A DNA stretch of 64,000 nucleotides, from contig DAOULP010000114.1 in NCBI GenBank assembly GCA_034420175.1, positions 4,014 to 68,013 of the forward strand. The letters are read 5' to 3'. Under the pieces are notes generated by a model. The model was not told the origin of the DNA. It made no database searches and saw nothing but the letters and a program-made list of their open reading frames with translations. This DNA comes from Dehalococcoidia bacterium (GTDB taxonomy: Bacteria; Chloroflexota; Dehalococcoidia; DSTF01; JALHUB01). The translations under genes and the position numbers were made by a program. Positions 4,761-28,208 of the stretch are shown here, one piece after another (positions within the stretch are counted from its first letter, which is position 1; each line of letters begins with the position of its first letter).

Positions 4761-4761
4761 T

Positions 4762-8792: not shown

Positions 8793-8803
8793 GGCGAAGA
8801 GGC

Positions 8804-11174: not shown

Positions 11175-14100
11175 ATGCAGCCTTCTCCCAACCCCAAGGC
11201 AGCCTTCGTTGTGAAGCACCATGAGGCCCTCTGTGAGGTCGCGGAGCGCATCAAAGCAGCTCGACCCGATCTGATCGTCGCGCTGGCTCGGAAGGGTCCG
11301 CGCCTCGGGGAGTTAGCTGCCGAATTTGGGATACCGATCTTCCCCGGCGGCGTCCCGGTGGTCTGCGAAAGAGCTTTGCCGTTTCTTGATGCTGGTTCGC
11401 TGCGACGCGTTGTCGTCTTTGACGACGCCGTCATCTGGGGCGGCACCTTGAGAGATACCATCGCGAATCATGTTCTTGAGGGTGCCGACGTAACTCCAAT
11501 CGTGCTTGCGGCCTCTAGATCGAGAGATCCTTCCTTGGTTCCCGGACTGCAACACGTGCTTGATCTCTCTGAGCAGGAAGCGACGGCGTTTAGTACGGAG
11601 CTAGTCGAGGCCTTCCACCTCCTGGCCAAACCCTACAGCGTCGACCACCCCATACTTGAAGTACCACTGTCCCACATTTCAGCGCTGTCCGAAGACGACA
11701 TCTGTGAAGCAGCGAGGAACGATCTGGCTGCCCAGGTCTTCAGACTCACCCAGCCGTTTGAGCGACGCGATGGCCTCTGCAACGTCGTACTGAATCGGCC
11801 AGAACTGCCAGGGTGGCATCTGGTCTGTGGGCCGACATCCGAGCCCTTGCATCTGTTCAAGATAAGATTCTTTGGGAATCGAGGAAGAGATGTTCTTAGG
11901 GTCACCCCCATGCTCATCTTCCGAGCACGCCGGGATGACCTAGCCTCTGGCAAGTTCGTCGCAGCCAAGGCCTTTCCTTCCCTGGCGTCCATCTTTGCAG
12001 ATGCGAGGCAGTTGATTGCCCAAAGCAGCGGCTTTGACGACGAGGGGCTATGTGCTCTCTACAGGCTACAGATGTATCTCGCAGAGCTGTCGCTCGGACT
12101 GCTTTTCGTCCTCTGGCTATGTGATCGTCGTTCCGTGGAGATCCCCGCAGAGATTCAGTCCTGCCTTCCTGCTTGGGACGCCGAGCTTGTCCTGGGGGAG
12201 AAGCTGGCCACGCGAATCCGGGCCGAAAGGAGTTTGCTGGGGGAGGCGATCGCAGTGAGCCGCAGGCCCCATCAGCCTCAGCTGTCTTCGGAGAGTAGCC
12301 ATACGGAGCGCCACAAAGACCGCGACACCGTGTCCGAACTCGAGAGAGATTTCCCGCGCATCGGGGAACGACTGCGGGCGGGGATGTCGCGAGCCCTCTC
12401 GCTCGAGGCCAATGTGTCCGCGCTGTTGAACGCGTTGCGGGAGTGCGACACAGGGACGAGACACCTAGGTTCCTACATACCGAACCGGCTTCATTTCGGC
12501 CTTGCGTTTGGGGAAATCAAGGACATCTTGACGAGATTCGGCATCTCCTTTGAGGATCATCACCTTTCCGGAGTTATCGACTATTTGGTTGACTTCGGAG
12601 TCGGCGTGCCTCTCGTGCAGTCGCGCCCGGACGGAGTCATCGATCGGATAAGTAGGTTCGGCGAGGCTGGGCACGCCATAAGCAAACTGCGCTACGCAGT
12701 CTACACAGCTGTCAATGAATTGCTTAGCCGGCAGCGAGACCTGTCTTCCTCGCATGTTGACGCTCTCCAGCTCACCGTGGTCGACAAAGCGCTGGGCTTC
12801 ATGGCCTTGGTGGGTCAGGCCTCAGGTCAACTTCCGGTCAACGAGCTGGCAGTGAAGCTTGCCTATCATCGATATGGAATAGACTTGCAGGTCGAGGACG
12901 TGTTGAGCGAGGGCCGGCTCCTGCAATGGGCAATCAGCGAGCAGATCGTCAGCATGGATGGTCCTCGCATTCGCCCAAGTCCGACTTTCGAGCTTCGGTT
13001 CCCACCGGATGAGTCCCCCCTGAATCCGGCCATGGTTGCGCTCATTGCAGGCTCGATGCACTGGTTCGCCGATGCCTCGATTGAGACAAGGGACAGCAGC
13101 AACCGATACCGTACCGCGCTCTCCGTGACCACATGCAATACCGCCAAGAGCACAATAGCAGCTATCAAGGCGACGCTGCGACTGTGGTTTGGTGATGTGT
13201 CTCGCCAGAATGCGCAGGGTTGTCTTGACGCCCTGTATGAGGTTACGCGCCTTCTGAGTGAGAATGCCGACACCGGTCGTTTGCGAAGCGCCTCGGCGGA
13301 CCTTGACCAGCGGTGTCGGAGAGGGCCTGCCGATCTGATGAGCCAATCTCGGCTCAAGCTTGAGGTCTTCCGAGACCTCGATCAGACGCGAAGTCGGTTG
13401 CGCGACATCTATGCTCAAGGGCGAAAGCCCGGTCTTGACACCTTCTATCGCGTGTATGTCGAGCCGCTGCTTGATCCCGCGACCACGGCAGGCCAGGAAA
13501 CCGAGCTTGAGGTCTTGGAGCGGTTGGGGAAGCTCTGCCAGTCGTGGACGACCGTTCTTCGAGAGTGCTCGGACCGAGTGGACGCGGTGCTGGCGGATCG
13601 AGGGGCCTCAGGCGCGAAACTCCGGGGGGCAATCGCTGATACCAATAGGGCCGCGGACGAGTTAGGGGGCAAGTCCCGCGTGTTTCGGACCGTCACCCGA
13701 ATCCCCCCCGTCGACTTGGAGATTCAGGACCGAACTCAGTTGAGGTCAACTCTGGAGCCGGTTCAGAGCGCGCTTGCGCAACTGCTGCAGGAACTCGAGT
13801 CCCTAGTCCGCACAACGGTATTCGCGGACATAGAGGCGACCGTGGAGCCGCTTCCTGAAGACTCGTATGTAGTGACCTACGATCTGATTGCCTCGACGGC
13901 CACCGGTGATACCTATGAGGTAGCGCAGCAACGATCTCATCTGAACTCCCACATCGTTCCGTTCGTCAGAGACCACCTGCGCGAAGTGGACTGTGTGCCC
14001 ACAGGCAATGACGAGAACACCTTTGTGGTGGGAACGGCTCTGAATGCGATGCGACTGGTGGATCAACTGTGCAGCAGCTTGGAGGCGATGGGCGGCTGTG

Positions 14101-14405
14101 CGAGGGTCGGCGTTACCTCAACTGCGACCCGGCAACGGTTATTCCAAGATCGCGTATACAAGACCCTTAGCGGTCAGGCGTTTGTTGTTGCAGCGAGAAT
14201 ACGGGACCTCTACCGAGATGAACAATGGCTGAGAGACGGTAGGTCCCATGTATTCCTAGACGAAATCATGCTTCGGGATCTGAGGGGTGCCCTGGAGTGC
14301 CAAGGCTACCTGGCCTCACTGCAGATCCGGGACGACGAGCCGCGTCAACTGAGAGGAGAGGGGCTTCCCGAGGTCCGCGTATGGGAGTACGTCAGGCAGG
14401 CATGA
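11175..14405 (+). CDS. Large multidomain protein (~1077 aa): N-terminal PRTase-like region plus C-terminal nucleotidyl-cyclase-like region
   Basis: ATG at 11175 has a GGAGG RBS 8 nt upstream. The ORF-track start at 10845 gives low-complexity translation. N-terminus PDLIVALARKGPRLGELAAEFGIP...LRRVVVFDDAVIWGGTLRD matches the type-I PRTase hood and PRPP-loop pattern VxxVDDvxxtGGT. C-terminal ~170 aa YVVTYDLIASTATGD...PTGNDENTFVVG...GVTSTATRQRL...GQAFVVAARIRD follows the motif spacing of class III nucleotidyl cyclases, also seen in GGDEF and palm folds. Both assignments are by eye. Confidence 0.75.
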   Translation: MQPSPNPKAAFVVKHHEALCEVAERIKAARPDLIVALARKGPRLGELAAEFGIPIFPGGVPVVCERALPFLDAGSLRRVVVFDDAVIWGGTLRDTIANHVLEGADVTPIVLAASRSRDPSLVPGLQHVLDLSEQEATAFSTELVEAFHLLAKPYSVDHPILEVPLSHISALSEDDICEAARNDLAAQVFRLTQPFERRDGLCNVVLNRPELPGWHLVCGPTSEPLHLFKIRFFGNRGRDVLRVTPMLIFRARRDDLASGKFVAAKAFPSLASIFADARQLIAQSSGFDDEGLCALYRLQMYLAELSLGLLFVLWLCDRRSVEIPAEIQSCLPAWDAELVLGEKLATRIRAERSLLGEAIAVSRRPHQPQLSSESSHTERHKDRDTVSELERDFPRIGERLRAGMSRALSLEANVSALLNALRECDTGTRHLGSYIPNRLHFGLAFGEIKDILTRFGISFEDHHLSGVIDYLVDFGVGVPLVQSRPDGVIDRISRFGEAGHAISKLRYAVYTAVNELLSRQRDLSSSHVDALQLTVVDKALGFMALVGQASGQLPVNELAVKLAYHRYGIDLQVEDVLSEGRLLQWAISEQIVSMDGPRIRPSPTFELRFPPDESPLNPAMVALIAGSMHWFADASIETRDSSNRYRTALSVTTCNTAKSTIAAIKATLRLWFGDVSRQNAQGCLDALYEVTRLLSENADTGRLRSASADLDQRCRRGPADLMSQSRLKLEVFRDLDQTRSRLRDIYAQGRKPGLDTFYRVYVEPLLDPATTAGQETELEVLERLGKLCQSWTTVLRECSDRVDAVLADRGASGAKLRGAIADTNRAADELGGKSRVFRTVTRIPPVDLEIQDRTQLRSTLEPVQSALAQLLQELESLVRTTVFADIEATVEPLPEDSYVVTYDLIASTATGDTYEVAQQRSHLNSHIVPFVRDHLREVDCVPTGNDENTFVVGTALNAMRLVDQLCSSLEAMGGCARVGVTSTATRQRLFQDRVYKTLSGQAFVVAARIRDLYRDEQWLRDGRSHVFLDEIMLRDLRGALECQGYLASLQIRDDEPRQLRGEGLPEVRVWEYVRQA

Positions 14406-15160
14406 GGCTGGCCTTGGTCCGCAGGCGGTACCGCGATCCACGGTATACGGGTGTCGTTATGCGCGCAGCCGCGGTTGCAGAAAGGGACGTGGTCTTGTCC
14501 GACTGTGCCGTCTGTCTTCGGCGAGGGCTGTGACCGCGGTGGCCTTCTCAGTGGAAGCCGAATGCGCGGAGGGTACGCGGAGCGTCTCTTGACGAGACCA
14601 GCCGGACGGCTCGAGTCGTGGAGAAGAGCTTGAGAGATGGCTGCTGGAGCCGCCGTCGCAGTCGGAGCCAATCTCGTCAGAGCCTGCTCTGCGTGCTTCA
14701 CCCTGGACGCTGCAGCCGTGAGCCAAAACCGAACGCCCCTCTTGCGTTGACGTCTACATCGAGTTCGCTTCCAGTCGTTCGAGTTGCTCGACACGGCAAA
14801 CACACCCTGCGCCCACACCCTCCGTTAGCGGGGACGGTGCTGGCCTGCGGGTCTGGCGGTTCGGTCCAAGGCTACCTCCACTAGGTCTTGGGCTCGAAGT
14901 CGGCGACTGCGGCGTCCCGGCTCGAAGGTGTCCACTGGTTGCCGACCCTGCAGTCAACGCCAGCGCTTTCTTCCACTCGATGGCTGACAGGCCGGGTCGT
15001 CGTCGCTGTGGTCAAGCACCGCGTTCGCTCCTGGGCCGGGCGCCACCATGTTCTCTTAGTGTGCGTTCCACGGCCGCCTGTGAGCCAGAGGCCTCCGCTG
15101 GCCTGAGCGGCTGTCTCGAAGACGCCTGAGGCGTGTCCCCCCGCGCTGGCGCAACTGGGG

Positions 15161-16018
15161 CTAGGGTAGGCTCTCACACGCCTCCGTGTCGCCGTCCCCG
15201 TCCAGTCCGTGCGGGTCCTCGGGATAGAACCGCTCGAAGAACTCTTGCGCCTCCGCCTGCGTCGCGAAGTCTTCGCAGTTGCAGTTGGTTGCCGCACATG
15301 GCGGGAGCCATGGGGTTGGCGTTGGAGTTGGAGACGGAGTCGGCGTTAGTGAGGTCGGCGTTGGCGACAAGGGCGGAGGCGGCGAGGGTGACGGAGGTGG
15401 TGGTTCGGTTCCACAAGGAGCGGTTGGGAGCCTGGTTGCGGATTCCGCTTCGCACCGCAAGTTCGTGAGGTACTCCACTTGGACCCTGACTTGCAGCGGG
15501 TTCGCGCTGCCGTGAGAGAAGGCGCCACGTAGTTCGTATTCTGGAGGATCTTCATCCCAGCAGCTGCCTTCCCTGATCAAGCAGGCCTGACGTTTCACCA
15601 TGGACGGAGCGAAGCTCTCCGGAGGCACCGACACCACCACTCGCGCCGACTCACCTTCCCCTATGACGATCGGCTCCGCCGGGAGCGTCACCGGGACTCC
15701 GTTTGCCGCTCCCTCTACAAGCTCCAGCGACTCAAGCATGGTGGAGCCGTCGCCATCGTTGACCAGGAAGGCCTCCAACTCAGCGGCATTGTCGACGAAG
15801 TAGTAGGCAACGACCTCTTCGTGAGGCGGATCGCCCAGGTCTGTCAGCACCATCTCGTCGACGGATCGCGAGAAGGTCACCCCTGCCCCGGTGATAGTAG
15901 GCGCAGGTCCCTGGAAGAAGGCCTGGTTGACCCACATCGCGTAGGCCGGTATGGCACCGATCAATGCTCCGAGTAGACCGCCGGCCGCCAGACCCAGCAG
16001 GCGTCGAAAGCGTTGCAT
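15161..16018 (-). CDS. Secreted protein with a C-terminal Excalibur Ca-binding domain
   Basis: Signal peptide [27 protein letters not shown], then a PT/SP linker ([28 protein letters not shown]), then [45 protein letters not shown] (Excalibur D-x-D-x-DG-x-x-CE). AAGGGGGTG RBS. Confidence 0.75.
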
Positions 16019-16328
16019 CGCACACCCCCTTAGAGAGAAGCCAAGGAGTGGAACTCAACCCCTTGCTCCCGGTGCCCCTTACACCCACCAACTCACAGCG
16101 TGCCGGACTCTGGGCGGCAGGCCGGGCATTCGCCGCAACGACAGCGTCTGCGTCTTTGGAGTCCCTGTGGCTTCTCACCCCCAGCTTGAGGCACACATCC
16201 CTACCTACACAAGCTCTCACAGGGCACTCCGTTCCCGTCCCCATCCAGGCGGTTCGGGTCGCTTGTGTAGGCTCCGAGGCGGGTCTGGGCCTCTGGCTGC
16301 GTGCTGGGGGGCTGATGCAAGTAGAGAT

Positions 16329-17930
16329 CTAGCCACTTATTCTCGCTTTCAGGACCCCAGACCGGTCCTGTGCGAATATAGCGATAGTGTCTGAGGAGAT
16401 TCGCTGTAGGGTTGGCTCAGACTCAGTCGGCTCAGGTTTACCAGAAGGTGGCTCTTTCGCTTGAACATTGGATAGGGCTGCAAGGAGCCTATCGTCGAGG
16501 GTCTGCTCTGCGACGTCTCTGTCTCTTGTCGTGCGCACCCATACCTCCACCGGGTGATCATTCCTATCCCGTGCCTCGACGCCAAAAAGCACATCATTTC
16601 CGCTCATTTCGATGGTGTCCGGCAGGAGCGTCACGTTCTGGAGTTGGGGCAGGACATCTCTGAGTGCGTCGTCGAAGGGGGGCAATTCGCCCCGATCTGC
16701 CGCCCGGGCCGCTAGTGTGGCCAAGAGAAAGAGATCGGCTTTGCTCCTGAACCACAACTCCCCGACTACGGGAGGCGGCTTGAGGCGATCATCCAACAGT
16801 TTCCCGAGCCACCCTGGCGGGTCAACCGAGAGTGCGTCTGCCTTGCGGTCGTAGGCTTCTGACGAGAGATCGCCGTTCTTGCTGTCTTGGTCGTAAGAGC
16901 TAGGCCGAATCACTGCGAAGGATACACCTGCATCGCTCAAGCGATCCTTCACTCGGTCTGTGTGCCCGACGCCCGTCTGCATGGCCGCCGGCGGGCCAGG
17001 AGACTGCCCGACTAGCGCCAAGGTGTTCTTGCTCATCGTGTCGGATCGAACAGAGCAGGCTTCGTAGAACCTCCTGAGCTTCTCAAGGTCTTCCTGGTGC
17101 TCGGGCTTGATTTCTGCCCCTACTTCGGCTGCTTTCGCCTTGATCTCATCAGTGCGCTCAAGTAACTCTTCGCACGAGGCGTCTAGGCTGGCATCCTTCA
17201 GCCGTTCGGACATCCTCTTAGTGAACTCATCTGTCCCAAGGATGAACTCGAGGGCTTCGTCCTCTTTGCCCTGCTCCGCGAAGTCGTTTGCCTTCAGAAT
17301 CTCCGCCTGCGTCAGACCCGCCACAGCGATCTGGTACAGATAGAAGATACTAGGATCGCCTGCATCCCCCGGCCTGATCGGGTATTCGGCCGCGTCGTCT
17401 ATGCCGGCTACGTTGACGTCGGCATAGACCAATGCCATCATTTCCGCAGCGCTAATCTCGCCGTCTTCCAAGAGTTGTACGATGGCGTCCTCGCGCGGCC
17501 CGATCGGCTGTCCCGCAGTGAACGACGGCCTATACCATCGCGTATCCAGGCTGCCGCCCTCTGAAAGAGCGCCTTCTAGTCCGATGTCTCGCAGATCATA
17601 ATCTGCGTACAAACGATTCAGCATGAGCGCTATTTCAACCTGGATGGCCGGCGAATTATGCTTTTCCTCGAGCACGAAGATGGTTCGGTTCGACGCCCCC
17701 TGTGCGACGTGCATCACTTTGCCGATATCGCCAGCAATGTCTTGAGCCATTGCCTCAAGATCGCCAGGGGTGGCTGTCGGCGCTAGTGTCGAGGCGGGTG
17801 TCAGCGTCGGTGTCGGTGCCTTCGCCTCCTCCGAGCCGCAGGCACTCATGACGAGAAGAACAAGGAGGCCCAGGGCCGCGAGCCCTATGGCCCACACTCT
17901 CTGATGTGGCGCGGAGCTGCCCGTCTTCAT
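16329..17930 (-). CDS. Lipoprotein (533 aa), unknown function; translationally coupled downstream of the TIR-HEAT gene
   Basis: MKTGSSAPHQRVWAIGLAALGLLVLLVMSACGSEE gives a lipobox, followed by a PT-rich linker. Its ATG overlaps the TIR gene stop (AGATGAAG). No catalytic motif recognised. Confidence 0.7.
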   Translation of the reverse strand: MKTGSSAPHQRVWAIGLAALGLLVLLVMSACGSEEAKAPTPTLTPASTLAPTATPGDLEAMAQDIAGDIGKVMHVAQGASNRTIFVLEEKHNSPAIQVEIALMLNRLYADYDLRDIGLEGALSEGGSLDTRWYRPSFTAGQPIGPREDAIVQLLEDGEISAAEMMALVYADVNVAGIDDAAEYPIRPGDAGDPSIFYLYQIAVAGLTQAEILKANDFAEQGKEDEALEFILGTDEFTKRMSERLKDASLDASCEELLERTDEIKAKAAEVGAEIKPEHQEDLEKLRRFYEACSVRSDTMSKNTLALVGQSPGPPAAMQTGVGHTDRVKDRLSDAGVSFAVIRPSSYDQDSKNGDLSSEAYDRKADALSVDPPGWLGKLLDDRLKPPPVVGELWFRSKADLFLLATLAARAADRGELPPFDDALRDVLPQLQNVTLLPDTIEMSGNDVLFGVEARDRNDHPVEVWVRTTRDRDVAEQTLDDRLLAALSNVQAKEPPSGKPEPTESEPTLQRISSDTIAIFAQDRSGVLKARISG

Positions 17931-18655
17931 CTAGAGGCTCCTTTCCTTTGCAGCCCTGTCACGGGAGGACATCGCTCATTCAGGGCGTCCTCGATCCCCA
18001 ACCTTGCATATCGATCGGTTTCCTTGTCCCAAGCTGCTCGTAGAGCGGCGCACGCCTCTTCGGTGCCGATCTGCCCTAACGCGTACGCCAACCAGTATCG
18101 AACTGTCGGATGGGTGTCGCTGTCCACATGGAGCCGGCGGGCGAGGATCGGGACCACAAAAGGATTCCGCAGCTTGGCTAGGTGTTGTGCCGCCTTAGCA
18201 CGAGAGTCAGGGTCACCATGAATCAACAGGGCCACGAGAGTTTGAACTTGGCCGGCTGCCCAGATGCCAGACAGCAGTTCTCCAACGCGCTCATCGAAGC
18301 GAGCTAGATCGCGGAAGTCGACGTAACGCAGAACCTTGAGGTCTGGTGGAACTCTGCACTTCTTGAAGAAGATGGGGATGATCTGGAGGCCCTTGCTGTT
18401 CCGGCACTTGAACGCCTCATCGAGCTCAATGGCGCATGCCTCCGACCTCAATGAGCCTGGAGACAGGATGAACAGGAAGGCGTCGCATTCGTCCTTCACT
18501 CCAGTCTGCATTCGGTGCCTCACATGGTGCCCGGTTAGGATTTGGTCCTCGTCAAGCCAAACACCGACGCCGTTGGCCCGTAGCGCCTCTGCTAGACAGA
18601 TGGCGAAGCCGTGCCCGCCGGCAGACCAGGAATGGCTAATGAAGCACCTACACAT
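17927..18655 (-). CDS. TIR-domain protein with C-terminal HEAT/PBS-lyase-like repeats (cytoplasmic)
   Basis: N-terminus CFISHSWSAGGHGFAICLAEAL...VWLDEDQILTGH...AFLFILSPGSLRSEACAIELDEAF is a TIR-like Rossmann pattern. C-terminus HLAKLRNPFVVPILARRLHVDSDTHPTVRYWLAYALGQIGTEEACAAL is a HEAT-like repeat. No signal peptide. Confidence 0.8.
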   Translation of the reverse strand: MCRCFISHSWSAGGHGFAICLAEALRANGVGVWLDEDQILTGHHVRHRMQTGVKDECDAFLFILSPGSLRSEACAIELDEAFKCRNSKGLQIIPIFFKKCRVPPDLKVLRYVDFRDLARFDERVGELLSGIWAAGQVQTLVALLIHGDPDSRAKAAQHLAKLRNPFVVPILARRLHVDSDTHPTVRYWLAYALGQIGTEEACAALRAAWDKETDRYARLGIEDALNERCPPVTGLQRKGASR

Positions 18656-18741
18656 GCTGAGTCCCGGTGTCGAGTCGCCACGTGACTGTCAGCAACCTCG
18701 TTACTCACAGGCTACGAGCACCGTATGAACAGGTCAACTCG

Positions 18742-19914
18742 TCACGGCAACGACTCGCAGGCGACGCCGTCGCTATTGCCGTCGAGGTTGAAGGGATCGT
18801 CAGGGAACGCTTCGAGGCATGCCTGGGCCTCGGCGTGAGTGTCAAAGTCGGCGCAGTCGCAGTCCGTCGCCGCGCACGGCCCGCAGGCCGGCGGCGTTGT
18901 CGCTGGTGTCGCTGTAGGCAAGGGCGTTGGTGGTGGAGTGCCGCTGATCGTGATGGAGTAGGTGCTGCAGTCGGATGTCAGGACCACCGTGCCGTCGAGG
19001 TCGGTCCGGTAGACTGTCGCGCCGTGGGCAGCCAGGCGGTCCAGCGTGTCCTGGGCAGGGTGACCGTACGAATTGTCGGCACCGACGCTGATGACAGCCT
19101 CGTTGGGGGTCACCGAATCCAGGAAGGCGTTCGTGGTCGACGTGCTGGAGCCGTGATGGCCAACCTTGAGCACTTCGGCGTCCAAATCCACTGAGGAGTC
19201 GGCCAGCATGTCGGCCTCGCTGTCCTCGGTGGCGTCCCCGGTCAGCAGCACGTCCACAGACCCGCATGAGACACGAAGCACAAGGGAGTCGGTGTTGGCG
19301 TCGCCGGACAGTGAAGTGGTGGGGTGGAGGGCCGTCAGGCTCACACCGGCGAACTGTGCTGAGTGGCCCCGCGTGATGGCCTCGGCAGCTAGCCCTTCCG
19401 CAGTGACGGCGTTCGCGAAAGGATCATGCTTGGGCCCACTGCCCTCGACGCCGTTGGTCCACAGGTGCTGCACGTCGTACTGGGCAAGCACACCCGGCAG
19501 ACCGCCGAAGTGGTCCAAGTGGGGATGAGTCAAGACGAGCAGGTCGATGTCGGGAATATCCTGGCCGGCCAGGTAGGTCAGGAGACCTGAGTCTTCGGGG
19601 CCGCCGTCCACGAGGATGTCGTCATCGCCCGCTTCGACCAGGATCGCGTCGCCTTGGCCCACGTCGATGAAGTGGATCTTGAAGCTTGTGGGCGCGGGTG
19701 TCGCAGTTGCAGCTGGCTCGGTGGCCGAAGGGCTGGCGGTCAAGTCCCTAGGTTCGATGGTGGCAACTGGCGTCCCTCCTGTTTGGGTAGGAGTGGTCGT
19801 CTGGACGGGGGAGGGCGTGACCGCCTCGGCATCATCACCGTTGTCGCTTCCGCCACACGAGAGGGAGGCGGTAGTCACAAGCACAACCAGATAGGCAAGA
19901 ACAAGCCGTCTCAT
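18742..19914 (-). CDS. Secreted MBL-fold (ComEC-C-terminal-like) hydrolase lipoprotein with a C-terminal Excalibur domain
   Basis: Start at the second Met (GGAGGAGG RBS): [48 protein letters not shown]...[13 protein letters not shown] is the HxHxDH metallo-beta-lactamase motif. C-terminus [47 protein letters not shown] is Excalibur. Confidence 0.85.
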
Positions 19915-20030
19915 ACTGGGCCTCCTCCAAGCCACGGCTACGTGGCCCTGCCAAATCCCCGGCTTCGGAGACTACTCGGTCGTCTTGCAGGCTGGCGCCC
20001 GCCGCAACGCGTCCGAGCGATCGCGACGGC

Positions 20031-20882
20031 CTACTCCGCCCCGTCGTGCACGAAGACCGCTCTGTCTCTGTTTGTTGCCTCGACCTCCAACTGCGGGATC
20101 TGGCTGTACCCCCCGTGGTCCAGTGACGCTCGGACCTTCCGGAGCAGTTCCTTCCGCGAGACGTGGGGATCTCGCCTCAGATGAACGTTGAAGAAGTAGG
20201 TGAAGGCCCCGTGATACCGCTCATCGATGTAGGCGTCAGCAGACGTCTGGTTCGCCATGCAGCCCGCCCAGAGGATGTGGTGCTTGACGGCCCTCTCCCT
20301 GGCACGACTGGCGAACCTCCTAGCCTCCAGCCCGTCTTCTTCACCGGCGAAGCGAAGATAGAGGTCTGCGGGTGGCGGCAGGTAGCGATTGTGAGTGGGG
20401 TGTTCTGCGGCCAGCTCGGGAGGGGGCGGCAGACCCATCTCTCTCAGCCCCGTTCCGGAGTGGCAGCAGTCAAGGATGACCTCCAGCAGGGCGCCCTCTG
20501 GTACGGGGCCGAGGATGCTGTTGAGGGTGTCGTCGGTGATGTAGGTGTGCCTGTCCCAATTCATGTCATGGGGGCAGATGAGCTCATCCAGGTGATCCTC
20601 AAGCTCCTCATCGTCGTCTCTGTCTCGTATCTGTGAACCGTGCCCGGAGAAGTGGAAGACCAGGAAGTCACCGGACGTGGCCCCCTCCACCAGCCATTCC
20701 AGTCTATGGATGATGTTGTCCTGTGTGGCTCGGCTGTCCGTGAGCACGCGGATTTCCTTCGCCTCGAAGCCGAAGAGGCTGCGAAGAGAGAAGTGCATGT
20801 CAAGGACATCGTTGACGCACCCGCCCAGATCGTTTGCCTCCTTGTACTCATTGATGCCGACCAGTAGAGCCTTCTTGGCCAT
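20031..20882 (-). CDS. Caspase-family (C14) peptidase, standalone, cytoplasmic
   Basis: MAKKALLVGINEY..., catalytic His context FHFSGHGSQ, catalytic Cys context LDCCHSGTG. Perfect AAGGAGGAAG RBS. No signal peptide. Confidence 0.85.
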   Translation of the reverse strand: MAKKALLVGINEYKEANDLGGCVNDVLDMHFSLRSLFGFEAKEIRVLTDSRATQDNIIHRLEWLVEGATSGDFLVFHFSGHGSQIRDRDDDEELEDHLDELICPHDMNWDRHTYITDDTLNSILGPVPEGALLEVILDCCHSGTGLREMGLPPPPELAAEHPTHNRYLPPPADLYLRFAGEEDGLEARRFASRARERAVKHHILWAGCMANQTSADAYIDERYHGAFTYFFNVHLRRDPHVSRKELLRKVRASLDHGGYSQIPQLEVEATNRDRAVFVHDGAE

Positions 20883-21243
20883 TTCTTCCTCCTTGGCAAG
20901 AGCCTAGGGTCTCATGGGTTGACATCCAGCAACCAGAGTCCCGTGCGCCACCTCACCTGTGACGAGCCCTCTCGGTCCGGCCAGCTTCCCGCGTCCGTCC
21001 TTGACCGGCACCCTTCATCAGCTCCTGGGTGACCCTGGCCATCCCTTCTCAACCTGGGATGGCCGCAGGCTAGCCCCGCGGACGCGGGCCGATCTATGAC
21101 CTACTTCACGGAAGGGTGCTTTCTGAGAAGGGGATGGGCGGTTCCTTGGTAGCAGTTGACAGTTGCCCCAGGGGCCAGCGGATGGCCTGTTCCGTGGCCA
21201 TATGATTCCATCGTTGTGTGGCCTGGGCGATATCGCCCGGCCG

Positions 21244-21999
21244 CTAGCCGCACAGGCTCTCACAGGGGATGCCATCGTCGTCCCCGTCGAGCCTGTTGGG
21301 ATCGCCTGGGCAAGCGTTGAACACCTCCATGACCTTGTCGCACGTGCTGAAGTCGCCACAGTTGTACTGATCCCGAGAGCAGTCCACGGTGACCGACGAC
21401 GTAGGTGAGGGCGAGGGTGTCACGTCAAGCGTGGGAGACCCACCGCAACCGGCCGGCGGCGGGTAGTCGCAGGCACCCCAGAGGCCTTGTCCCGCCTGGT
21501 ACGCTTGACACTCCAGGGACTTGAACAAGCCCTCGAACATCGTGTCCGGTGGGTAGGTCTTCACGCGAGCATAGCCCTGCTTGACCAGCTCGGCGTCAAG
21601 GAAGGTCTCACATCCTGGGCTGTTTGGGTCGGTGTCCACCCACACGTAGGCCAGGAGCCGTCCGTATTTGTCGGTGCAGGAGATGTCCCGCAGCAGACAA
21701 ACGCTTCGCCCGTCGAGCAGGCTCTTGGTGAAGGCCGAGGCCTCCGGGCCATAGCACTCCACGGGCTTGCTGGGGTGGACGGTCTCGGGCGTGTCGATGC
21801 CGATCAACCGCACGGTGTAGGTCTGGCCGGGGGCAACGTTGCAGTCGAAGTCGGTCTGGTCGAGCCAGAGGGCCTGCACCTTGAAGGTGTCGCCGTCCGT
21901 CACTTGCGTGACCTGGCCGACAGCGCACCTGGCGCCGGTGCCAAGTACCCCCAGGGTCAGTAGAGCTAGCAGAAGTAAGATGAGCCGGACACGACTCAT
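21244..21999 (-). CDS. Secreted thermonuclease (SNase-like) with a C-terminal Excalibur domain
   Basis: Start at the internal Met with an AAGGAGGAAT RBS: MSRVRLILLLLALLTLGVLGTGARC signal. VRLIGIDTPET...YGRLLAYVW is staphylococcal-nuclease-like. C-terminus DCSRDQYNCGDFSTCDKVMEVFNACPGDPNRLDGDDDGIPCESLCG is Excalibur. Confidence 0.85.
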   Translation of the reverse strand: MSRVRLILLLLALLTLGVLGTGARCAVGQVTQVTDGDTFKVQALWLDQTDFDCNVAPGQTYTVRLIGIDTPETVHPSKPVECYGPEASAFTKSLLDGRSVCLLRDISCTDKYGRLLAYVWVDTDPNSPGCETFLDAELVKQGYARVKTYPPDTMFEGLFKSLECQAYQAGQGLWGACDYPPPAGCGGSPTLDVTPSPSPTSSVTVDCSRDQYNCGDFSTCDKVMEVFNACPGDPNRLDGDDDGIPCESLCG

Positions 22000-22397
22000 G
22001 GCATTCCTCCTTCTCATGCGGCGGGGTGGGTGTGGGGAAGAAGGATGAACGAATATGCCTGCATCAGCATTGTACACCCGCTGTCAAGTAGGAGGGTGTC
22101 TCGCACGATCAACAGCTATTCTGTTGCCGTCGCCATTCCTCCCGCTGGGATGGCCGCAGGCTAGCTCCTCGGATGCGGGCCGATCTATGAGCTACCTCAC
22201 GCAGCGGTGCTTTCCGGGAGGAGGATGGGCGGTCGCTTGGGAGATGCGGACGATGGTACCGGGCGACAACGGCTGGATTGCCCAGCCATCACCATTCACG
22301 GATCGTGTGCGGTCGGTTGGTTCCTGCAGAGGCCAACGAGACGTCAGGGGTGGTCTCAAAGACCACCCCCGTGGTTGAATCGTGGACTGCTGGCTAC

Positions 22398-24095
22398 CTA
22401 CGGGTCTCCCGTGCAGTCCACCACGAACGCCTGGGCCAACACCGTGAGCACGTCGCCCATGTCGATCACGCTGTTGGGAGGGCCAGCGTCCCATGGTGGG
22501 TTTGGCCCAGCGCTGGGCGAGCGGTCGTAGCAGAGGCCCTCCTTGTCAGGGGTGGTGTCTCCGTCCATGTCGCAGGAGCCCTTGACAGTATCGTACGAGA
22601 CGCCATTGGCGTTGGGCGGTCCGCCCTCGTCTGCGAAGGTGTAGAAGAGCACACCGAGCACGTCACCGATGTCCACGATCTGATCCCGTGGGCCGTTGGG
22701 CGTCATGTCTGGGCTGGTCGGGGCTGGCACGTCGTAGAAATCATAGGGGTTGAGGGGGTCGTAGGCACCTGTCGAGCCGGGCTTGGGCACCGGGGCTCCG
22801 GCCGGCTCCTCACTGTCTGCGCAGCCATCGACATCTGTGTCAAGGGAGCACCCATCAGTATGATAGACCTGGAGCTCGTCAAGGCTGGTGAGGCCGTCGG
22901 TATCGGGATCTGCGAGTTCATCGGGAAGAGTGGACGTGCAGCGTCGATGCGCGAAGGGGCCGCCATAAATGCCGTGATCATTCGTCTGGCCCCCCATTCC
23001 CGCGGCAGGCAGATCGTCACTCTCAGGGGAGGGGTCACCCGCGTCAACCGATGGGGAGTCGTAACGAAGGCGGTAGTCCAGGGCTCCTCGGAAACGCGGT
23101 GCTTCGACGATGTCCGTCGGTCCGAGTTCATAGGAGCCGATGGATTGATTGCCGTACAGAGTGTTGTAGGAAGTAGCCGCATGCGAGGGGCCATTGACGG
23201 GATCATCGCTCTCGACAAGCACGGTCTGATTCGAGAGGAAGATGTTGTTGCGCACGGTGGGGAAGGACGGGCCATAGCCGTCATCTGCGAGGAACAAGGC
23301 GGCAGTAGTGCCCTCGAATACGTTGTTGATGAGGTATGGGTTGCTCGTGTAGATCTGCGCGCCGAGAAGAGAGCCGCGAAACACGTTGTTTCGAATCTGC
23401 GGATCAGGCCCGGCTCCTTGAGAAGGAGTGTTGTACCAGCCCCAGTAGCCTACGTGGGTGCATTGGGTAATCAGGTTCGTGAAGGTTCCGCTAGTGTGTT
23501 CGCCGTAGACGCCAGCGGAGCAGTTCCGAAGTTCGAATCCATCGATCACATAGCTGGGGTTGTCCTGATGTTCAACGAGAAGCGCACTAGAACCCCCAGC
23601 GTCTATGACGGTGTTCTCAGCTCCGGCACCAATAAGACTGATGTTCTTGAAGCGGACCCTCACGTTCTCGTGATAGGTGCCTGGGCCGACCTGCACCGTG
23701 TCTCCTGGTTGCGCTGCGTCGACGGCCAGTTGAATTGTGGAATAGTCCTCAGGTACTCGTCTGATAGTACCGGGACGGGGCACAAGAACAAGATCGAGCT
23801 CAGACATGACCCCATTCGTGACGGACACGACCTGAGACGCCTCCGCGTAACCCGGCTTGAAGGCAAAGACCCTGTAGGTCCCAGGGCTTAGATCCTGGAG
23901 TGAGTATTGACCCGCAGAGTCCGTTAGGGTCTCAACGCTGGTTCCTTCCACCCACATGACCGCGGAGCCAAGAGGCACGGCTGACGTGTCCATCACTTGC
24001 CCCGTGACACCCTGCGTGACTGCGCCAATGCCGCTTGGCCACGCGAACGCTGCCAGCAAGCCCACAACCAGTATCCGAGTCAGCGAAGCCTTCAC
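22398..24095 (-). CDS. Secreted protein: CarboxypepD_reg-like domain plus right-handed beta-helix plus a C-terminal dockerin-like module
   Basis: GTG start with a GGAAGGAGG RBS. Signal MKASLTRILVVGLLAAFAWPSGIGA. GQVMDTSAVPLGSAVMWVEG...DSAGQYSLQDLSPGTYRV is transthyretin/Cna-B-like. NNVFRG/NNVFEG/NNIFLS are beta-helix repeats. C-terminal ~120 aa ...DIGDVLGVLFYTFADEGGPPNANGVSYD...VIDMGDVLTVLAQAFVVDCTGDP is the module shared with 24150..26054 and the RHS protein. Confidence 0.75.
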   Translation of the reverse strand: MKASLTRILVVGLLAAFAWPSGIGAVTQGVTGQVMDTSAVPLGSAVMWVEGTSVETLTDSAGQYSLQDLSPGTYRVFAFKPGYAEASQVVSVTNGVMSELDLVLVPRPGTIRRVPEDYSTIQLAVDAAQPGDTVQVGPGTYHENVRVRFKNISLIGAGAENTVIDAGGSSALLVEHQDNPSYVIDGFELRNCSAGVYGEHTSGTFTNLITQCTHVGYWGWYNTPSQGAGPDPQIRNNVFRGSLLGAQIYTSNPYLINNVFEGTTAALFLADDGYGPSFPTVRNNIFLSNQTVLVESDDPVNGPSHAATSYNTLYGNQSIGSYELGPTDIVEAPRFRGALDYRLRYDSPSVDAGDPSPESDDLPAAGMGGQTNDHGIYGGPFAHRRCTSTLPDELADPDTDGLTSLDELQVYHTDGCSLDTDVDGCADSEEPAGAPVPKPGSTGAYDPLNPYDFYDVPAPTSPDMTPNGPRDQIVDIGDVLGVLFYTFADEGGPPNANGVSYDTVKGSCDMDGDTTPDKEGLCYDRSPSAGPNPPWDAGPPNSVIDMGDVLTVLAQAFVVDCTGDP

Positions 24096-26054: not shown

Positions 26055-26295
26055 GGGTCCACCTCCACAGAGAAGCATAGCCTCGCTGCCACGCGGCGTG
26101 TCCCGAGTCTACCACGCGCAGTCAAAGGGATCGAGCGCGAACAACGCGACGAACCAGCTCCTAGCTCCGTTCGGAGGGAGCAGGAAACACAATGCTGCCA
26201 TAGTGTGCGGCCAAAGGGCACCAGCCGGTGACGAGCCCAAGACGAGGGGCGGCCGCGCAGGCCGCCCCTCCGTCCTGTGGATGCAGACTCCTTGT

Positions 26296-27830: not shown

Positions 27831-28208
27831 CTACCTCCTACGCGTGTCCCACCAGAACCCCATCAGGTTCGACAGAAGAAGAACCCCCGCCACTGAGCCG
27901 ATGACGGCAGCATCCCCGCTCACCACTGCCACCAGGGCCAAGATGGCCACCGAGACAACGAGCCGAGGCAGCGGTGCATGGGGGAACCTGCTGGTCAGCC
28001 AACCGGCCACGCCCATCTGCTGAGCCAGAAGACCGCCGATGCCGAACACGGCGAGGAGGTTGATGGCAACTCCCTCCCACAGAGCGAGCACCGCACACGT
28101 CAAGGTCGCCCCGATCGCGACCACGAAGGCAATTGCCCCCGTCCAGACCCTGACTGGCCGGCTGAACCTGTACTTCGTCTCTGCGCCTTGCGCTGGCGGG
28201 GAGCTCAT
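27831..28208 (-). CDS. Membrane protein, putative cognate immunity for the main RHS toxin
   Basis: ATG overlaps the RHS stop (AGATGAGC). ~125 aa with three hydrophobic helices (AIAFVVAIGATLTCAVLAL..., LLAVFGIGGLLAQQMGVAGWL, LVVSVAILALVAVV...). The ORF-track upstream extension lies inside the RHS gene and is rejected. Confidence 0.6.
   Translation of the reverse strand: MSSPPAQGAETKYRFSRPVRVWTGAIAFVVAIGATLTCAVLALWEGVAINLLAVFGIGGLLAQQMGVAGWLTSRFPHAPLPRLVVSVAILALVAVVSGDAAVIGSVAGVLLLSNLMGFWWDTRRR

What the first reader, a model, noticed from the sequence alone, without database searches (positions are those of the whole stretch)
15161..22077. Cytoplasmic TIR-HEAT protein and standalone caspase embedded in a co-oriented run of secreted Excalibur-domain hydrolases
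All six genes are on the minus strand, in this order: a thermonuclease-Excalibur (secreted), a caspase C14 with no signal peptide, an MBL-hydrolase-Excalibur lipoprotein, a TIR-HEAT protein with no signal peptide, a 533-aa lipoprotein whose ATG overlaps the TIR stop (ATGA), and an unknown-Excalibur protein. TIR domains (NADases) and caspase-like proteases are hallmarks of prokaryotic immune and cell-death modules. Here they are wired to secreted nucleases or hydrolases and a lipoprotein rather than to the usual cytoplasmic effectors. The arrangement could be a regulated cell-death or eDNA-release module, or a membrane-signalling defence system with a TIR sensor and a lipoprotein partner.
Basis: partly seen in the sequence, partly recalled or inferred. 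Interest (0 to 1): 0.68.

Follow-up and report, generated by a model that had tools for sequence, protein, structure and literature searches.

The report
TIR death-enzyme paired with surface lipoprotein
The six genes are real, but only two form a conserved unit: a cytoplasmic TIR-HEAT enzyme translationally coupled to an exported hydrolase-like lipoprotein, a pairing found in three phyla with interchangeable "cell-death" enzyme heads and apparently not yet described; the caspase and the secreted nucleases are just neighbours.

Summary
All six minus-strand genes exist with the stated domains. The six-gene "module" does not hold up. Across 54 related loci, the caspase, SNase-Excalibur and unknown-Excalibur genes never accompany the TIR-lipoprotein pair. 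The MBL-Excalibur gene does so only in one close relative. Caspase homologues (71-78% identical) sit in unrelated neighbourhoods. What is conserved is a two-gene unit. Gene 1 is a variable N-terminal enzyme fused to a constant HEAT module of about 100 aa. The enzyme is TIR here; elsewhere it is CHAT protease, PNP_UDP nucleosidase, TIR plus deoxyribosyltransferase, or helical/Gly-rich domains. Gene 2, immediately downstream and often overlapping (ATGA here), is a ~530-aa lipoprotein. I found the pair in 21 distinct loci from Chloroflexota, Actinomycetota and an archaeon. The lipoprotein has no Pfam match, but its model resembles erythromycin esterases, and it carries the invariant 2His/2Glu motif of the TIKI/Ere superfamily. 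The TIR keeps its catalytic Glu (E77). NUDIX or NrtR-like genes recur beside the pair. Best reading (inferred): a new effector-swapping conflict module in which the HEAT adaptor couples a NAD-destroying effector to the lipoprotein, possibly through its unusual signal peptide. How a cytoplasmic effector and an exported enzyme communicate is unresolved.

The parts
17927..18655 (-). Gene 1 of the conserved pair: a 242-aa cytoplasmic TIR-HEAT protein. The TIR domain is residues 5-128 (nt 18272-18643) and the HEAT module is residues ~138-228 (nt ~17972-18244).
   Evidence: Pfam TIR_2 1.1e-22 and HEAT_2 2.4e-15. The AF2 model has pLDDT 88 and pTM 0.81. Foldseek hits to TIR domains of TRR-2, SPARTA, SARM1 and AbTir. 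The HEAT part matches alphaRep-type HEAT_PBS repeats. No signal peptide.
18425..18427 (-). Codon of Glu77, the putative catalytic glutamate of the TIR NADase, in the motif SPGSLRSEACAIEL.
   Evidence: Invariant in 23 family members together with S65, P66, S71 and C74. It aligns with the Glu of the 'YEL'/'KEL' motif in AbTIR 8g83 and PdTIR 3h16.
17927..17930 (-). ATGA overlap: the stop codon of the TIR-HEAT gene and the start codon of the lipoprotein gene (translational coupling), with a GGAAAGGAG ribosome-binding site just upstream.
   Evidence: Read directly from the sequence. The ORF list shows the same 4-nt overlap in the Amycolatopsis locus L013, where partner 8592-9848 meets lipoprotein 9845-11416. 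Short gaps or overlaps occur in the other loci.
16329..17930 (-). Gene 2 of the conserved pair: a 533-aa lipoprotein. Signal peptide residues 1-30 (nt 17841-17930), lipobox Cys31 (nt 17838-17840), Pro/Thr linker, TIKI/Ere-like catalytic domain (residues ~57-380), and an alpha/beta C-terminal domain (residues ~390-533).
   Evidence: No Pfam, NCBIfam or PADLOC family. The AF2 model has pLDDT 85.8 and pTM 0.83. The only Foldseek PDB hits of note are EreC 6xcq, Bcr135 3b55 and 2rad (E 2.6e-3 to 1.3e-2, probability 0.94-0.77). The signal peptide and lipobox are conserved across the family.
16962..17666 (-). Span holding the predicted 2His/2Glu catalytic residues of the lipoprotein: E89 (17664-17666), H91 (17658-17660), E119 (17574-17576) and H323 (16962-16964).
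   Evidence: All four are invariant in 28 homologues and in 18 partnered homologues. The E-x-H pattern and the 28-residue H-to-E spacing equal those of RRSP (E3900/H3902/E3930) and Bcr135 (H85/E113), as given in PMC6254334.
18742..19935 (-). Neighbour, not part of the conserved pair: a lipoprotein with a ComEC-type MBL domain and an Excalibur-like tail, probably an extracellular nuclease or phosphodiesterase.
   Evidence: Lactamase_B 1.7e-21. ComEC_Rec2 C-terminal region 3.6e-43. Tail homologous to Excalibur tails. Syntenic only in the close relative L050 and absent from the other related loci.
20031..20882 (-). Neighbour, not part of the pair: a stand-alone 283-aa caspase-like (C14) protease.
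   Evidence: Peptidase_C14 1.9e-32. More than 5000 homologues, the best ones 60-78% identical across phyla. Three homologue neighbourhoods are unrelated to this one.
21244..22077 (-). Neighbour, not part of the pair: a secreted thermonuclease with an Excalibur tail (the likely start gives 21244-21999).
   Evidence: SNase 3.4e-23 and Excalibur 9.5e-4. 361-nt gap to the caspase gene. Absent from related loci.
15161..16018 (-). Neighbour, not part of the pair: a secreted protein of unknown fold with an Excalibur tail.
   Evidence: Excalibur 3e-4. 310-nt gap after the lipoprotein gene. Replaced by an RHS gene in L050 and absent elsewhere.

Best explanation
SHOWN. The functional unit is two genes, not six. 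Gene 1 encodes a cytoplasmic protein with a swappable N-terminal enzyme and a constant C-terminal HEAT module of about 100 aa. Here the enzyme is a TIR domain with an intact catalytic Glu. Gene 2, translationally coupled to gene 1, encodes an exported lipoprotein. Its catalytic domain looks like a TIKI/erythromycin-esterase-superfamily hydrolase with an intact 2His/2Glu site. The caspase and the three Excalibur proteins are independent neighbours in a variable island of secreted and conflict-related genes.

INFERRED. The pair is a conflict (abortive-infection-type) module.
- The N-terminal domain is the executioner; here it would deplete NAD+.
- The HEAT module is a dedicated adaptor that ties the executioner's activity to the state of the lipoprotein partner.
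- The effector is cytoplasmic and the mature lipoprotein is outside the cell. The most economical coupling is therefore that HEAT engages the partner before or during export. The contact could be the partner's unusually long, conserved signal-peptide n-region (R-x(0-3)-W) or its C-terminal domain.
- A disturbance of export or envelope maturation would then free or assemble the effector.
- NUDIX or NrtR-like genes next to many copies would buffer or sense the ADP-ribose-type products.
For: Pair conservation:
- A HEAT-bearing gene lies immediately upstream, on the same strand, in 21 distinct loci besides the window. These include Litorilinea and other Chloroflexota, Amycolatopsis (2 loci), Kibdelosporangium, Labedaea and a Thermoplasmata MAG.
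- All-against-all clustering of the flanks finds only these two families shared.

Effector swapping on a constant HEAT module:
- TIR in many loci; CHAT in L007; PNP_UDP_1 in L013, L015, L016, L019 and L042; TIR-HEAT plus Nuc_deoxyrib_tr in P0051; Gly-rich/helical in L005, P0067 and P0069; helical in P0068; Zn-ribbon-like in L024.
- Swaps occur among close lipoprotein relatives. The CHAT-linked and TIR-linked partners are both about 50% identical to the window's lipoprotein.
- The CHAT and PNP heads match defence-effector HMMs: PADLOC 'chat' 1.4e-27 and CBASS 'Effector PN-superfamily' 1.8e-23.

Active sites retained:
- TIR E77 is invariant and aligns with the AbTIR Glu.
- The lipoprotein's E89/H91/E119/H323 are invariant and match the TIKI 2His/2Glu spacing. 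Foldseek's top hits are EreC and Bcr135.

Tight coupling: the ATGA overlap with an RBS.

Signal-peptide correlation: R-x(0-3)-W occurs in 16 of 24 partnered versus 1 of 19 unpartnered lipoproteins (Fisher 3.7e-5, not phylogeny-corrected).

Other support:
- P0066 is a natural chimera joining TIR, the lipoprotein C-terminal domain and half of the HEAT module.
- NUDIX genes lie next to the pair in L023, L055, L013, L015, L016 and L042.
- The surroundings are conflict-type in the window (DndB-like, methylase, DUF3800, RHS), in L050 (RHS) and in L055 (T4SS genes).
Against: - There is no experimental evidence of any kind.
- The compartments do not match. The TIR-HEAT protein has no export signal and nine cysteines, while the partner has a conserved lipobox and PT linker.
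- About 16 distinct loci carry the lipoprotein without any HEAT partner. Some family members are fused to LysM, SH3b or Tcp10_C repeats. The lipoprotein therefore has a function of its own at the cell surface.
- Several partnered loci sit among ordinary metabolic genes rather than defence islands.
- The lipoprotein matches no PADLOC model.
- The NrtR-like regulators could equally point to NAD metabolism.
- The Ere/TIKI fold match is weak (E ~1e-3, TM ~0.2), and no Pfam TIKI-type model hits.
Confidence: 0.45

Rival explanations
1. All six genes form one regulated cell-death or eDNA-release module. TIR and caspase kill the cell, and the secreted SNase, MBL and Excalibur proteins process the released DNA.
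For: - The six genes are adjacent and co-oriented, and the gaps from caspase to MBL to TIR are short (95 and 86 nt).
- MBL-Excalibur, TIR-HEAT and the lipoprotein are syntenic in one relative, L050.
- Nuclease-type domains are present.
Against: - None of the caspase, SNase, MBL or unknown-Excalibur genes occurs in the other 47 lipoprotein-anchored loci.
- Caspase homologues have unrelated neighbours.
- L050 is about 75% identical at the DNA level, so its synteny is expected by descent. Even there the downstream Excalibur gene is replaced by an RHS gene.
- The minus-strand run extends over more than 14 genes.
- The block is bounded by gaps of 361 and 310 nt.
Confidence: 0.05
2. The pair is a NAD/nucleotide turnover or signalling module rather than an immune system. 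An N-glycosidase (TIR, PNP_UDP, deoxyribosyltransferase) cleaves NAD(P), NMN or nucleosides under control of an NrtR-type, ADP-ribose-sensing repressor. The lipoprotein acts on a related extracellular substrate.
For: - NrtR-like NUDIX-wHTH genes lie directly beside PNP_UDP-HEAT in L013, L015, L016 and L042.
- In L013, L015 and L016 they are divergent, and conserved palindromes occupy the shared promoter region.
- NUDIX genes lie upstream of TIR-HEAT in L023 and L055.
- Most N-terminal heads are nucleotide N-glycosidases.
- Several loci have metabolic neighbours.
Against: - CHAT protease, Gly-rich/helical and Zn-ribbon heads do not fit nucleotide metabolism.
- Head-swapping on a constant adaptor is the signature of conflict systems.
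- The PNP and CHAT heads score best with defence-effector HMMs.
- The distribution is patchy across three phyla.
- NUDIX domains are also common in NAD-centred conflict systems.
Confidence: 0.2
3. Hitchhiker export. The HEAT module binds the folded lipoprotein in the cytoplasm, and the complex is exported (Tat-type). The TIR, PNP or CHAT enzyme is then displayed on the cell surface for scavenging extracellular nucleotides or for antagonising neighbours.
For: - Partnered lipoproteins have long n-regions. Twin arginines occur in 12 of 24 versus 3 of 19 unpartnered ones, and the R-x(0-3)-W motif is enriched.
- The actinobacterial members have Tat-like signal peptides, such as KRRYWLQWAGSAALAVVLTGC.
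- The model would resolve the compartment mismatch.
- In the window and in L050 the neighbours are secreted nucleases.
Against: - The window's own signal peptide has QR rather than RR, and a long, very hydrophobic Sec-type h-region.
- TIR-HEAT has nine cysteines, including invariant C74, which is typical of a cytoplasmic protein.
- NAD+ and ATP are intracellular substrates.
- No Tat components or other export genes are linked.
Confidence: 0.1
4. The HEAT protein is simply a dedicated chaperone or escort for the lipoprotein precursor, like the signal-peptide-binding chaperones of Tat substrates. The enzymatic heads are secondary additions without a death function.
For: - Some partners carry little more than the HEAT module, for example L024 (176 aa, with a Zn-ribbon-like N-terminus).
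- The HEAT module is conserved rather than hypervariable.
- The signal-peptide motif correlates with presence of a partner.
Against: - Catalytic residues of the TIR, CHAT (HG and C motifs) and PNP (EMEGAG) heads are retained.
- Half of the lipoprotein family manages without a partner.
- Repeated acquisition of different death-type enzymes needs an explanation.
Confidence: 0.1

Closest known systems
TIR-effector defence systems (Thoeris ThsB, SPARTA TIR-APAZ, CBASS/Pycsar TIR effectors, AbTir-type NADases)
   Same: - A TIR fold with the conserved catalytic Glu in the S..S..C..EL motif.
- Weak hits to TIR HMMs of ThsB, SAVED-TIR and short-pAgo-associated (Aga) proteins, and to Thoeris type III ThcB4 (far below cutoff).
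   Different: - No ThsA (SIR2/SLOG/Macro), Argonaute, cyclase or SAVED partner is nearby.
- The TIR is fused to a family-specific HEAT adaptor and paired with an exported lipoprotein, a combination not represented in PADLOC 2.0.
Effector-swapping conflict systems (CBASS effectors; Kaur/Burroughs/Aravind NTP-dependent ternary systems; fungal and bacterial NLRs with N-terminal TIR, PNP_UDP or caspase-like heads)
   Same: - The same repertoire of interchangeable heads (TIR, PNP-superfamily nucleosidase, CHAT/caspase, membrane-type) sits on a constant scaffold.
- PNPase and TIR are named as alternative effectors in PMC7159879.
   Different: - There is no STAND/NACHT, MoxR, vWA or GTPase component and no nucleotide cyclase.
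- The constant part is only ~100 aa of HEAT repeats.
- The invariant partner is an extracytoplasmic enzyme rather than a cytoplasmic sensor.
TIKI / erythromycin esterase / ChaN / TraB-PrgY superfamily (EreC 6xcq, Bcr135 3b55, RRSP, HopBA1)
   Same: - The best structural matches of the lipoprotein model are EreC and Bcr135/Bcr136.
- Invariant E-x-H, a Glu 28 residues later, and a distal His reproduce the 2His/2Glu catalytic motif.
- Like PrgY, Tiki and ChaN, the protein is extracytoplasmic.
   Different: - No Pfam model of that superfamily hits.
- The Foldseek scores are marginal (E ~1e-3, TM ~0.2).
- There is a ~130-residue helical insertion between the two halves of the site, and an extra C-terminal alpha/beta domain.
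- The substrate is unknown.
Signal-peptide-binding chaperones and hitchhiker export of Tat substrates (TorD/DmsD/NapD type). This is a functional analogy only, recalled from general knowledge.
   Same: - A cytoplasmic all-helical protein is encoded in the same operon as an exported partner.
- The partner's signal-peptide n-region carries a conserved Arg-containing motif that correlates with presence of the partner.
   Different: - No sequence or fold relationship was tested.
- The window's signal peptide lacks the twin arginine.
- The helical protein carries a death-type enzyme.
- Binding is unproven.

Membership tests
TIR-domain NAD+ hydrolase (AbTir/SARM1/ThsB-type effector) | TIR (flavodoxin-like) fold | tested here: met
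   Pfam TIR_2 1.1e-22. In the AF2 model residues 1-115 give strand/helix alternation. Foldseek TM 0.68-0.83 (normalised to the target) to the TRR-2, SARM1 and AbTir TIR domains.
TIR-domain NAD+ hydrolase (AbTir/SARM1/ThsB-type effector) | Catalytic glutamate in the conserved position after strand C | tested here: met
   E77 is invariant in 23 sequences. It aligns with the Glu of the YEL motif in AbTIR 8g83 and KEL in PdTIR 3h16. That this Glu is the catalytic one in AbTir is from my own knowledge.
TIR-domain NAD+ hydrolase (AbTir/SARM1/ThsB-type effector) | NAD+ cleavage activity, usually upon oligomerisation | not testable with these tools
   Needs an enzyme assay.
Thoeris defence system | A ThsB TIR protein together with a ThsA effector (SIR2/SLOG, Macro or TM) in the same locus | tested here: not met
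   There is no SIR2, SLOG or Macro gene in 12-26 kb of the window or in the related loci. The NCBIfam ThcB4 hit scores 24.6 bits against a cutoff of 220.
STAND/NLR-type (Avs-like) immune receptor | Central NTPase (NACHT/NB-ARC) domain between effector and repeats | tested here: not met
   The 242-aa protein consists only of TIR, a linker helix and HEAT. No NTPase gene is conserved next to the pair.
TIKI / Ere / ChaN / TraB superfamily hydrolase (for the lipoprotein) | 2His/2Glu catalytic motif: E-x-H, a Glu ~28 residues downstream, and a distal His | tested here: met
   E89, H91, E119 and H323 are invariant in 28 homologues. The spacing is identical to RRSP E3900/H3902/E3930 and Bcr135 H85/E113.
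TIKI / Ere / ChaN / TraB superfamily hydrolase (for the lipoprotein) | Core parallel beta-sheet flanked by helices, superposable on Ere/Bcr135 | tested here: inconclusive
TIKI / Ere / ChaN / TraB superfamily hydrolase (for the lipoprotein) | Match to a curated sequence model of the superfamily (Erythro_esteras, TraB_PrgY_gumN, Cofac_haem_bdg) | tested here: not met
   No Pfam or NCBIfam family at E <= 0.01. The profile search against PDB sequences gave no relevant hit.
Bacterial lipoprotein | N-terminal signal peptide ending in a lipobox with an invariant Cys | tested here: met
   The window has LLVMSAC-G, with Cys31 invariant among partnered homologues. A lipobox-type Cys is present in nearly all of about 50 homologues and is followed by a Pro/Thr linker. 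Lipidation itself is not testable here.
Caspase/gasdermin or CHAT-based defence modules (for the caspase gene) | Conserved linkage of the protease to a gasdermin, a CRISPR/CBASS sensor, or here to the TIR pair | tested here: not met
   Three homologue neighbourhoods share no gene with the window or with each other. The PADLOC 'caspase' hit is domain-level only.
Six-gene operon/module as proposed | Co-occurrence of the six families in other genomes | tested here: not met
   BLAST of all six proteins against every ORF of 49 loci: four of the families are found only in L001, the identical sequence. L050 keeps three of the six.

The most novel reading that the evidence does not exclude
This would be a trans-envelope surveillance system of a new kind. 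A dedicated HEAT adaptor lets interchangeable cytoplasmic death enzymes (TIR NADase, PNP nucleosidase, CHAT protease and others) monitor the export or maturation of a specific TIKI-like surface lipoprotein, by reading its signal peptide or its unexported precursor. Interference with the envelope or secretion machinery, for example by phage, would trigger NAD+ depletion. In effect this is a 'guard' of lipoprotein export.
Probability: 0.15. Interest if true: 0.8.

Novelty: new variant of a known kind. Interest (0 to 1): 0.56.

Why it matters
TIR, PNP and caspase-like enzymes are the shared executioners of bacterial, plant and animal immunity. What varies, and what is least understood, is how they are switched on. 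In this module the constant partner is neither a nucleotide cyclase, an NTPase nor a nucleic-acid sensor. It is an exported, enzyme-like lipoprotein, linked through a small dedicated HEAT adaptor. If the coupling is real, it points to an unexplored way of triggering cell-death effectors from the state of the cell envelope or the secretion pathway. It would also give a function to a sizeable family without annotation (about 2400 clusters at 50% identity). The analysis further shows that adjacency of 'death' domains and secreted nucleases in an island is not evidence of a joint system.

Tried and rejected
1. Six-gene module: rejected by neighbourhood comparison.
2. Operon signals: the promoter and terminator consensus scan of 14400-22500 was at chance level and is uninformative.
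3. Direct test of HEAT-lipoprotein binding: I built a paired alignment of 18 lipoprotein-linker-HEAT fusions for AF2.
5. Sequence-profile search of the lipoprotein family against PDB sequences: only spurious de novo NTF2 hits to the C-terminal domain.
6. The search of 1.84 billion representatives was meant to reach annotated TIKI-type relatives. It showed the family is large (2432 hits). The 150 proteins listed are all close family members, so no bridge to a Pfam family was obtained. Scanning the longest of them showed only accessory LysM, Tcp10_C, TPR and CdiA_C domains.
7. A third universally conserved gene: none was found. NUDIX genes recur only in subsets.
8. Rosetta-stone argument from P0066: I kept it only as weak evidence. 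Its TIR is a paralogue of the adjacent TIR-TPR gene, so the protein may be a recombination chimera.
9. Literature: no paper in the library combines TIR, HEAT repeats, lipoprotein and anti-phage, and none links erythromycin-esterase-like proteins to TIR defence. The two Aravind-lab surveys mention HEAT only as a generic repeat.
10. Source organism: it could not be named. I infer Chloroflexota from the flexitail domains and from the taxonomy of the homologues.

Full report
**1.

Six minus-strand ORFs occupy 15161-22077. Pfam gives the following.
- SNase plus Excalibur: 21244-22077.
- Peptidase_C14: 20031-20882.
- Lactamase_B: 18742-19935.
- TIR_2 plus HEAT_2: 17927-18655.
- Nothing for the 533-aa protein at 16329-17930.
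- Excalibur at the C-terminus of 15161-16018.

Further details:
- The MBL protein's tail is not called by Pfam. It is 63% identical over 46 aa to the Excalibur tail of 15161-16018, so three Excalibur-type tails are present.
- The MBL domain is of the ComEC C-terminal type (TIGR00361, 3.6e-43).
- Signal peptides or lipoboxes are present on the SNase, the MBL protein, the 533-aa protein and the last gene. They are absent from the caspase and from TIR-HEAT.
- The TIR-HEAT stop codon and the lipoprotein start codon overlap as ATGA, behind a GGAAAGGAG ribosome-binding site.

Two qualifications:
- The same-strand run continues for at least 14 genes, up to about 41.4 kb, so co-orientation carries no weight.
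- The block is bounded internally by gaps of 361 nt (SNase to caspase) and 310 nt (lipoprotein to last gene). Consensus promoter and terminator scans were at chance level.

**2. The six genes are not a conserved unit**

I anchored on the least common gene, the 533-aa lipoprotein. This gave 39 homologues in the word-indexed search. I then fetched 48 loci from metagenomes and GTDB genomes.

- I ran BLAST of all six window proteins against every ORF of these loci. The caspase, SNase, MBL and unknown-Excalibur proteins appeared only in L001, a contig identical to the window.
- A relative with about 75% DNA identity over 3.4 kb (L050) keeps MBL-Excalibur, TIR-HEAT and the lipoprotein. An RHS gene follows directly where the window has the unknown-Excalibur gene. 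At that distance synteny is expected by descent.
- From the caspase side, the family is huge: 5290 hits, the best 60-78% identical, from Chloroflexi-like metagenomes to Methanotrichaceae, Desulfogranum and Acidobacteriota.
- Three homologues on long contigs lie next to unrelated genes, with no TIR, nuclease or lipoprotein nearby. The neighbours are PGK/DXS/FtsZ, a sigma-54 regulator with a DctM transporter, and a trypsin-like gene with phage-tail-like genes.

**3. What is conserved is a two-gene unit**

- In 21 distinct loci besides the window, the gene immediately upstream of the lipoprotein homologue carries the same C-terminal HEAT module of about 100 aa. It is on the same strand, and gaps run from a 4-nt overlap to about 170 nt. 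The module has the consensus ...AAQxLxxLxNPFTVPILARRL...DPDPTVRYWLAYALGQIGGEEACAAL...GIExGL.
- Hosts include Litorilinea and other Chloroflexota, Amycolatopsis silviterrae, A. oliviviridis, Kibdelosporangium persicum, a Labedaea MAG and a Thermoplasmata MAG.
- The 4-nt overlap recurs in Amycolatopsis (L013).
- All-against-all clustering of ORFs in 20 such loci found no third family common to all.
- About 16 distinct loci, mostly an Anaerolineae-type subfamily, have the lipoprotein without a HEAT partner.
- An exhaustive profile search shows the lipoprotein family is large: 2432 clusters at E <= 1e-3 and 385 at <= 1e-30.
- Occasional fusions to LysM, SH3b, Tcp10_C repeats, and in one case TPR plus CdiA_C, fit a cell-surface location.

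**4. Gene 1: a swappable head on a constant adaptor**

The domain joined to the HEAT module varies between loci:
- TIR in the window and in at least 12 loci.
- TIR-HEAT followed by a nucleoside 2-deoxyribosyltransferase domain (P0051).
- A CHAT protease with the His and Cys motifs (L007).
- A PNP_UDP_1 nucleosidase with the GVAGG and EMEGAG motifs (L013, L015, L016, L019, L042).
- A Gly-rich/helical domain (L005, P0067, P0069).
- Another helical domain (P0068).
- A Zn-ribbon-like stub (L024).

The swaps occur between close relatives. The lipoproteins linked to CHAT (L007, 51% identity to the window's lipoprotein), to TIR (L002, 50%) and to the helical head (L005, 46%) are equally near the window's protein.

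The CHAT and PNP heads score best against defence-effector models: PADLOC 'chat' 1.4e-27 and CBASS 'Effector PN-superfamily' 1.8e-23.

For the window's protein:
- The TIR fold is confirmed. The model has pLDDT 88 and pTM 0.81, with Foldseek hits to TRR-2, SPARTA, SARM1 and AbTir.
- Glu77 is invariant and aligns with the Glu of the YEL motif of AbTIR.
- The HEAT part resembles alphaRep/HEAT_PBS repeats, which are generic protein-binding scaffolds. Here it is conserved rather than hypervariable, which suits an adaptor better than a diversifying sensor.

**5. Gene 2: an exported enzyme-like lipoprotein**

- The family has a conserved signal peptide, lipobox Cys and Pro/Thr linker.
- The AF2 model is confident (pLDDT 85.8, pTM 0.83).
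- Its only meaningful PDB neighbours are erythromycin esterase EreC and the Ere-like Bcr135/Bcr136, and the scores are marginal.
- Independently, the alignment has invariant E89-x-H91, E119 and H323. The TIKI/Ere superfamily is defined by a 2His/2Glu site. RRSP has E3900, H3902, E3930 and H4030, and Bcr135 has the H85/E113 pair (PMC6254334). The E-x-H pattern and the 28-residue spacing from His to Glu are the same.
- I therefore regard the protein as a divergent TIKI/Ere-type hydrolase (esterase or peptidase) acting outside the membrane. No curated sequence model of that superfamily hits it.

**6. Clues to how the two are coupled (leads, not proof)**

(a) Signal-peptide motif. Partnered lipoproteins have long signal-peptide n-regions (median 11 versus 8 residues), with an R-x(0-3)-W motif at the n/h boundary. 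The motif occurs in 16 of 24 partnered versus 1 of 19 unpartnered proteins (Fisher 3.7e-5). This is not corrected for phylogeny, but the motif is present in both the Chloroflexi and the actinobacterial groups. Twin arginines occur in 12 of 24 versus 3 of 19. The window itself has HQRVW.

(b) A natural chimera. P0066 joins a TIR, the lipoprotein's C-terminal domain and half of the HEAT module in one cytoplasmic protein, and is seen in two samples. It may be a recombination product.

(c) NUDIX genes recur next to the pair.
- A NUDIX gene and a 160-aa protein lie upstream of TIR-HEAT in L023 and L055.
- NrtR-like NUDIX-wHTH regulators lie beside PNP_UDP-HEAT in L013, L015, L016 and L042.
- In L013, L015 and L016 these regulators are divergent, and conserved palindromes occupy the shared promoter region.
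- This ties the module to NAD/ADP-ribose chemistry.

(d) Context is conflict-like in some loci and ordinary in others.
- Conflict-like: the window has DUF3800, a DndB-like gene, a methylase and an RHS gene. L050 has an RHS gene. L055 has T4SS genes.
- Ordinary: L002 and L005.

**7. Interpretation**

Shown:
- A conserved, translationally coupled pair.
- Head swapping on gene 1.
- Retained catalytic residues in both proteins.
- Opposite predicted compartments.

Inferred: a conflict-type module in which HEAT links a death effector (here NAD+ hydrolysis) to the state of the lipoprotein. I favour contact with the precursor or its signal peptide, that is, surveillance of export or envelope maturation. 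The reason is that the effector looks cytoplasmic: it has no export signal, nine cysteines, and intracellular substrates.

Alternatives I cannot exclude:
- An NrtR-controlled NAD/nucleotide turnover module.
- Hitchhiker (Tat-type) co-export that puts the enzyme on the surface.
- A plain escort-chaperone role for HEAT.

**8. Novelty**

- The pair matches no PADLOC 2.0 system beyond domain-level hits to the heads.
- Literature searches found no description of it.
- It uses familiar executioners in the familiar swap-the-effector logic, so I class it as a new variant of a known kind.
- The unusual element is the exported TIKI-like partner and the dedicated HEAT adaptor.

**9. Verdict**

- The six-gene interpretation is not supported.
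- The narrower idea of a TIR protein with a lipoprotein partner is supported and extended.
- Interest is moderate to fairly high (0.56). This is a real, broadly distributed and apparently unannotated gene pair with a genuinely puzzling topology, but there is no functional evidence and the mechanism is uncertain.

Noticed in passing
window 10845-14405 (+), with 3361-10066 upstream: A 1186-aa ORF has no Pfam, NCBIfam or PADLOC match but carries a phosphoribosyltransferase-like motif (VVVFDDAVIWGGT). It follows a DUF3800 gene, a DndB-like gene, an unknown 436-aa gene and an N6/N4 DNA methylase. This looks like a defence island with an uncharacterised large component.
   Followed up: partly
window 20031-20882 (-); L051, L053, L054: The stand-alone 283-aa caspase belongs to a family of more than 5000 proteins. 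The best hits are 60-78% identical across distant phyla, including archaea, yet no neighbours are conserved. That is unusually strong conservation for an orphan protease of unknown role.
   Followed up: partly
L055:2895-4055 (P0066) and the whole of L055: P0066 is a chimeric ORF joining a TIR, the lipoprotein's C-terminal domain and half of the HEAT module. It lies between TIR-HEAT and the lipoprotein together with a TIR-TM-TPR gene. The locus starts with a NUDIX gene and a 160-aa gene and is flanked by PrgI and TraC-like conjugation genes.
   Followed up: partly
L013:6826-8592, L015:7904-8919, L016:8080-8820, L042:1744-2508: NrtR-like NUDIX-wHTH regulator genes lie directly next to the PNP_UDP-HEAT/lipoprotein pair in actinobacteria (two copies in L013). 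In L013, L015 and L016 the regulator is divergent, and the intergenic region holds conserved palindromes GTCAAnTTGAC and CGTCAGnCTGACG.
   Followed up: partly
window 17841-17930 and homologues (signal peptides): Lipoproteins with a HEAT partner have long n-regions with an R-x(0-3)-W motif and often twin arginines. Unpartnered ones have short Sec-type n-regions (16 of 24 versus 1 of 19).
   Followed up: yes
window 22398-24095 and 24150-26078 (-); 28205-33439 (-): Two secreted proteins end in the 'flexitail' surface-anchor domain (NCBIfam NF041520), which points to a Chloroflexota host. They are followed by a 1744-aa RHS/DUF6531 toxin gene. In the relative L050 the RHS homologue lies directly next to the lipoprotein gene.
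   Followed up: partly
window 17927-18655 (-), P0041: A database copy from NCBI (P0041, 194 aa, 100% identical) starts at Met49 and cuts off the first strands of the TIR. Twenty-two homologues support the 242-aa start used here.
   Followed up: yes
P0306, P0038, P0012, P0217 (lipoprotein family members elsewhere): Some family members carry LysM, SH3b or Tcp10_C repeat modules. One is TPR plus a TIKI-like domain plus a CdiA C-terminal toxin domain. This suggests cell-wall association and, in one case, a toxin-delivery context.
   Followed up: partly
literature (PMC6254334) versus window 16329-18655: HopBA1 is listed among TIKI-superfamily folds. From memory, it is the bacterial effector sensed by the plant TIR-only receptor RBA1. 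That is a curious parallel to a TIR protein paired with a TIKI-like protein. It is untested and possibly coincidental.
   Followed up: no
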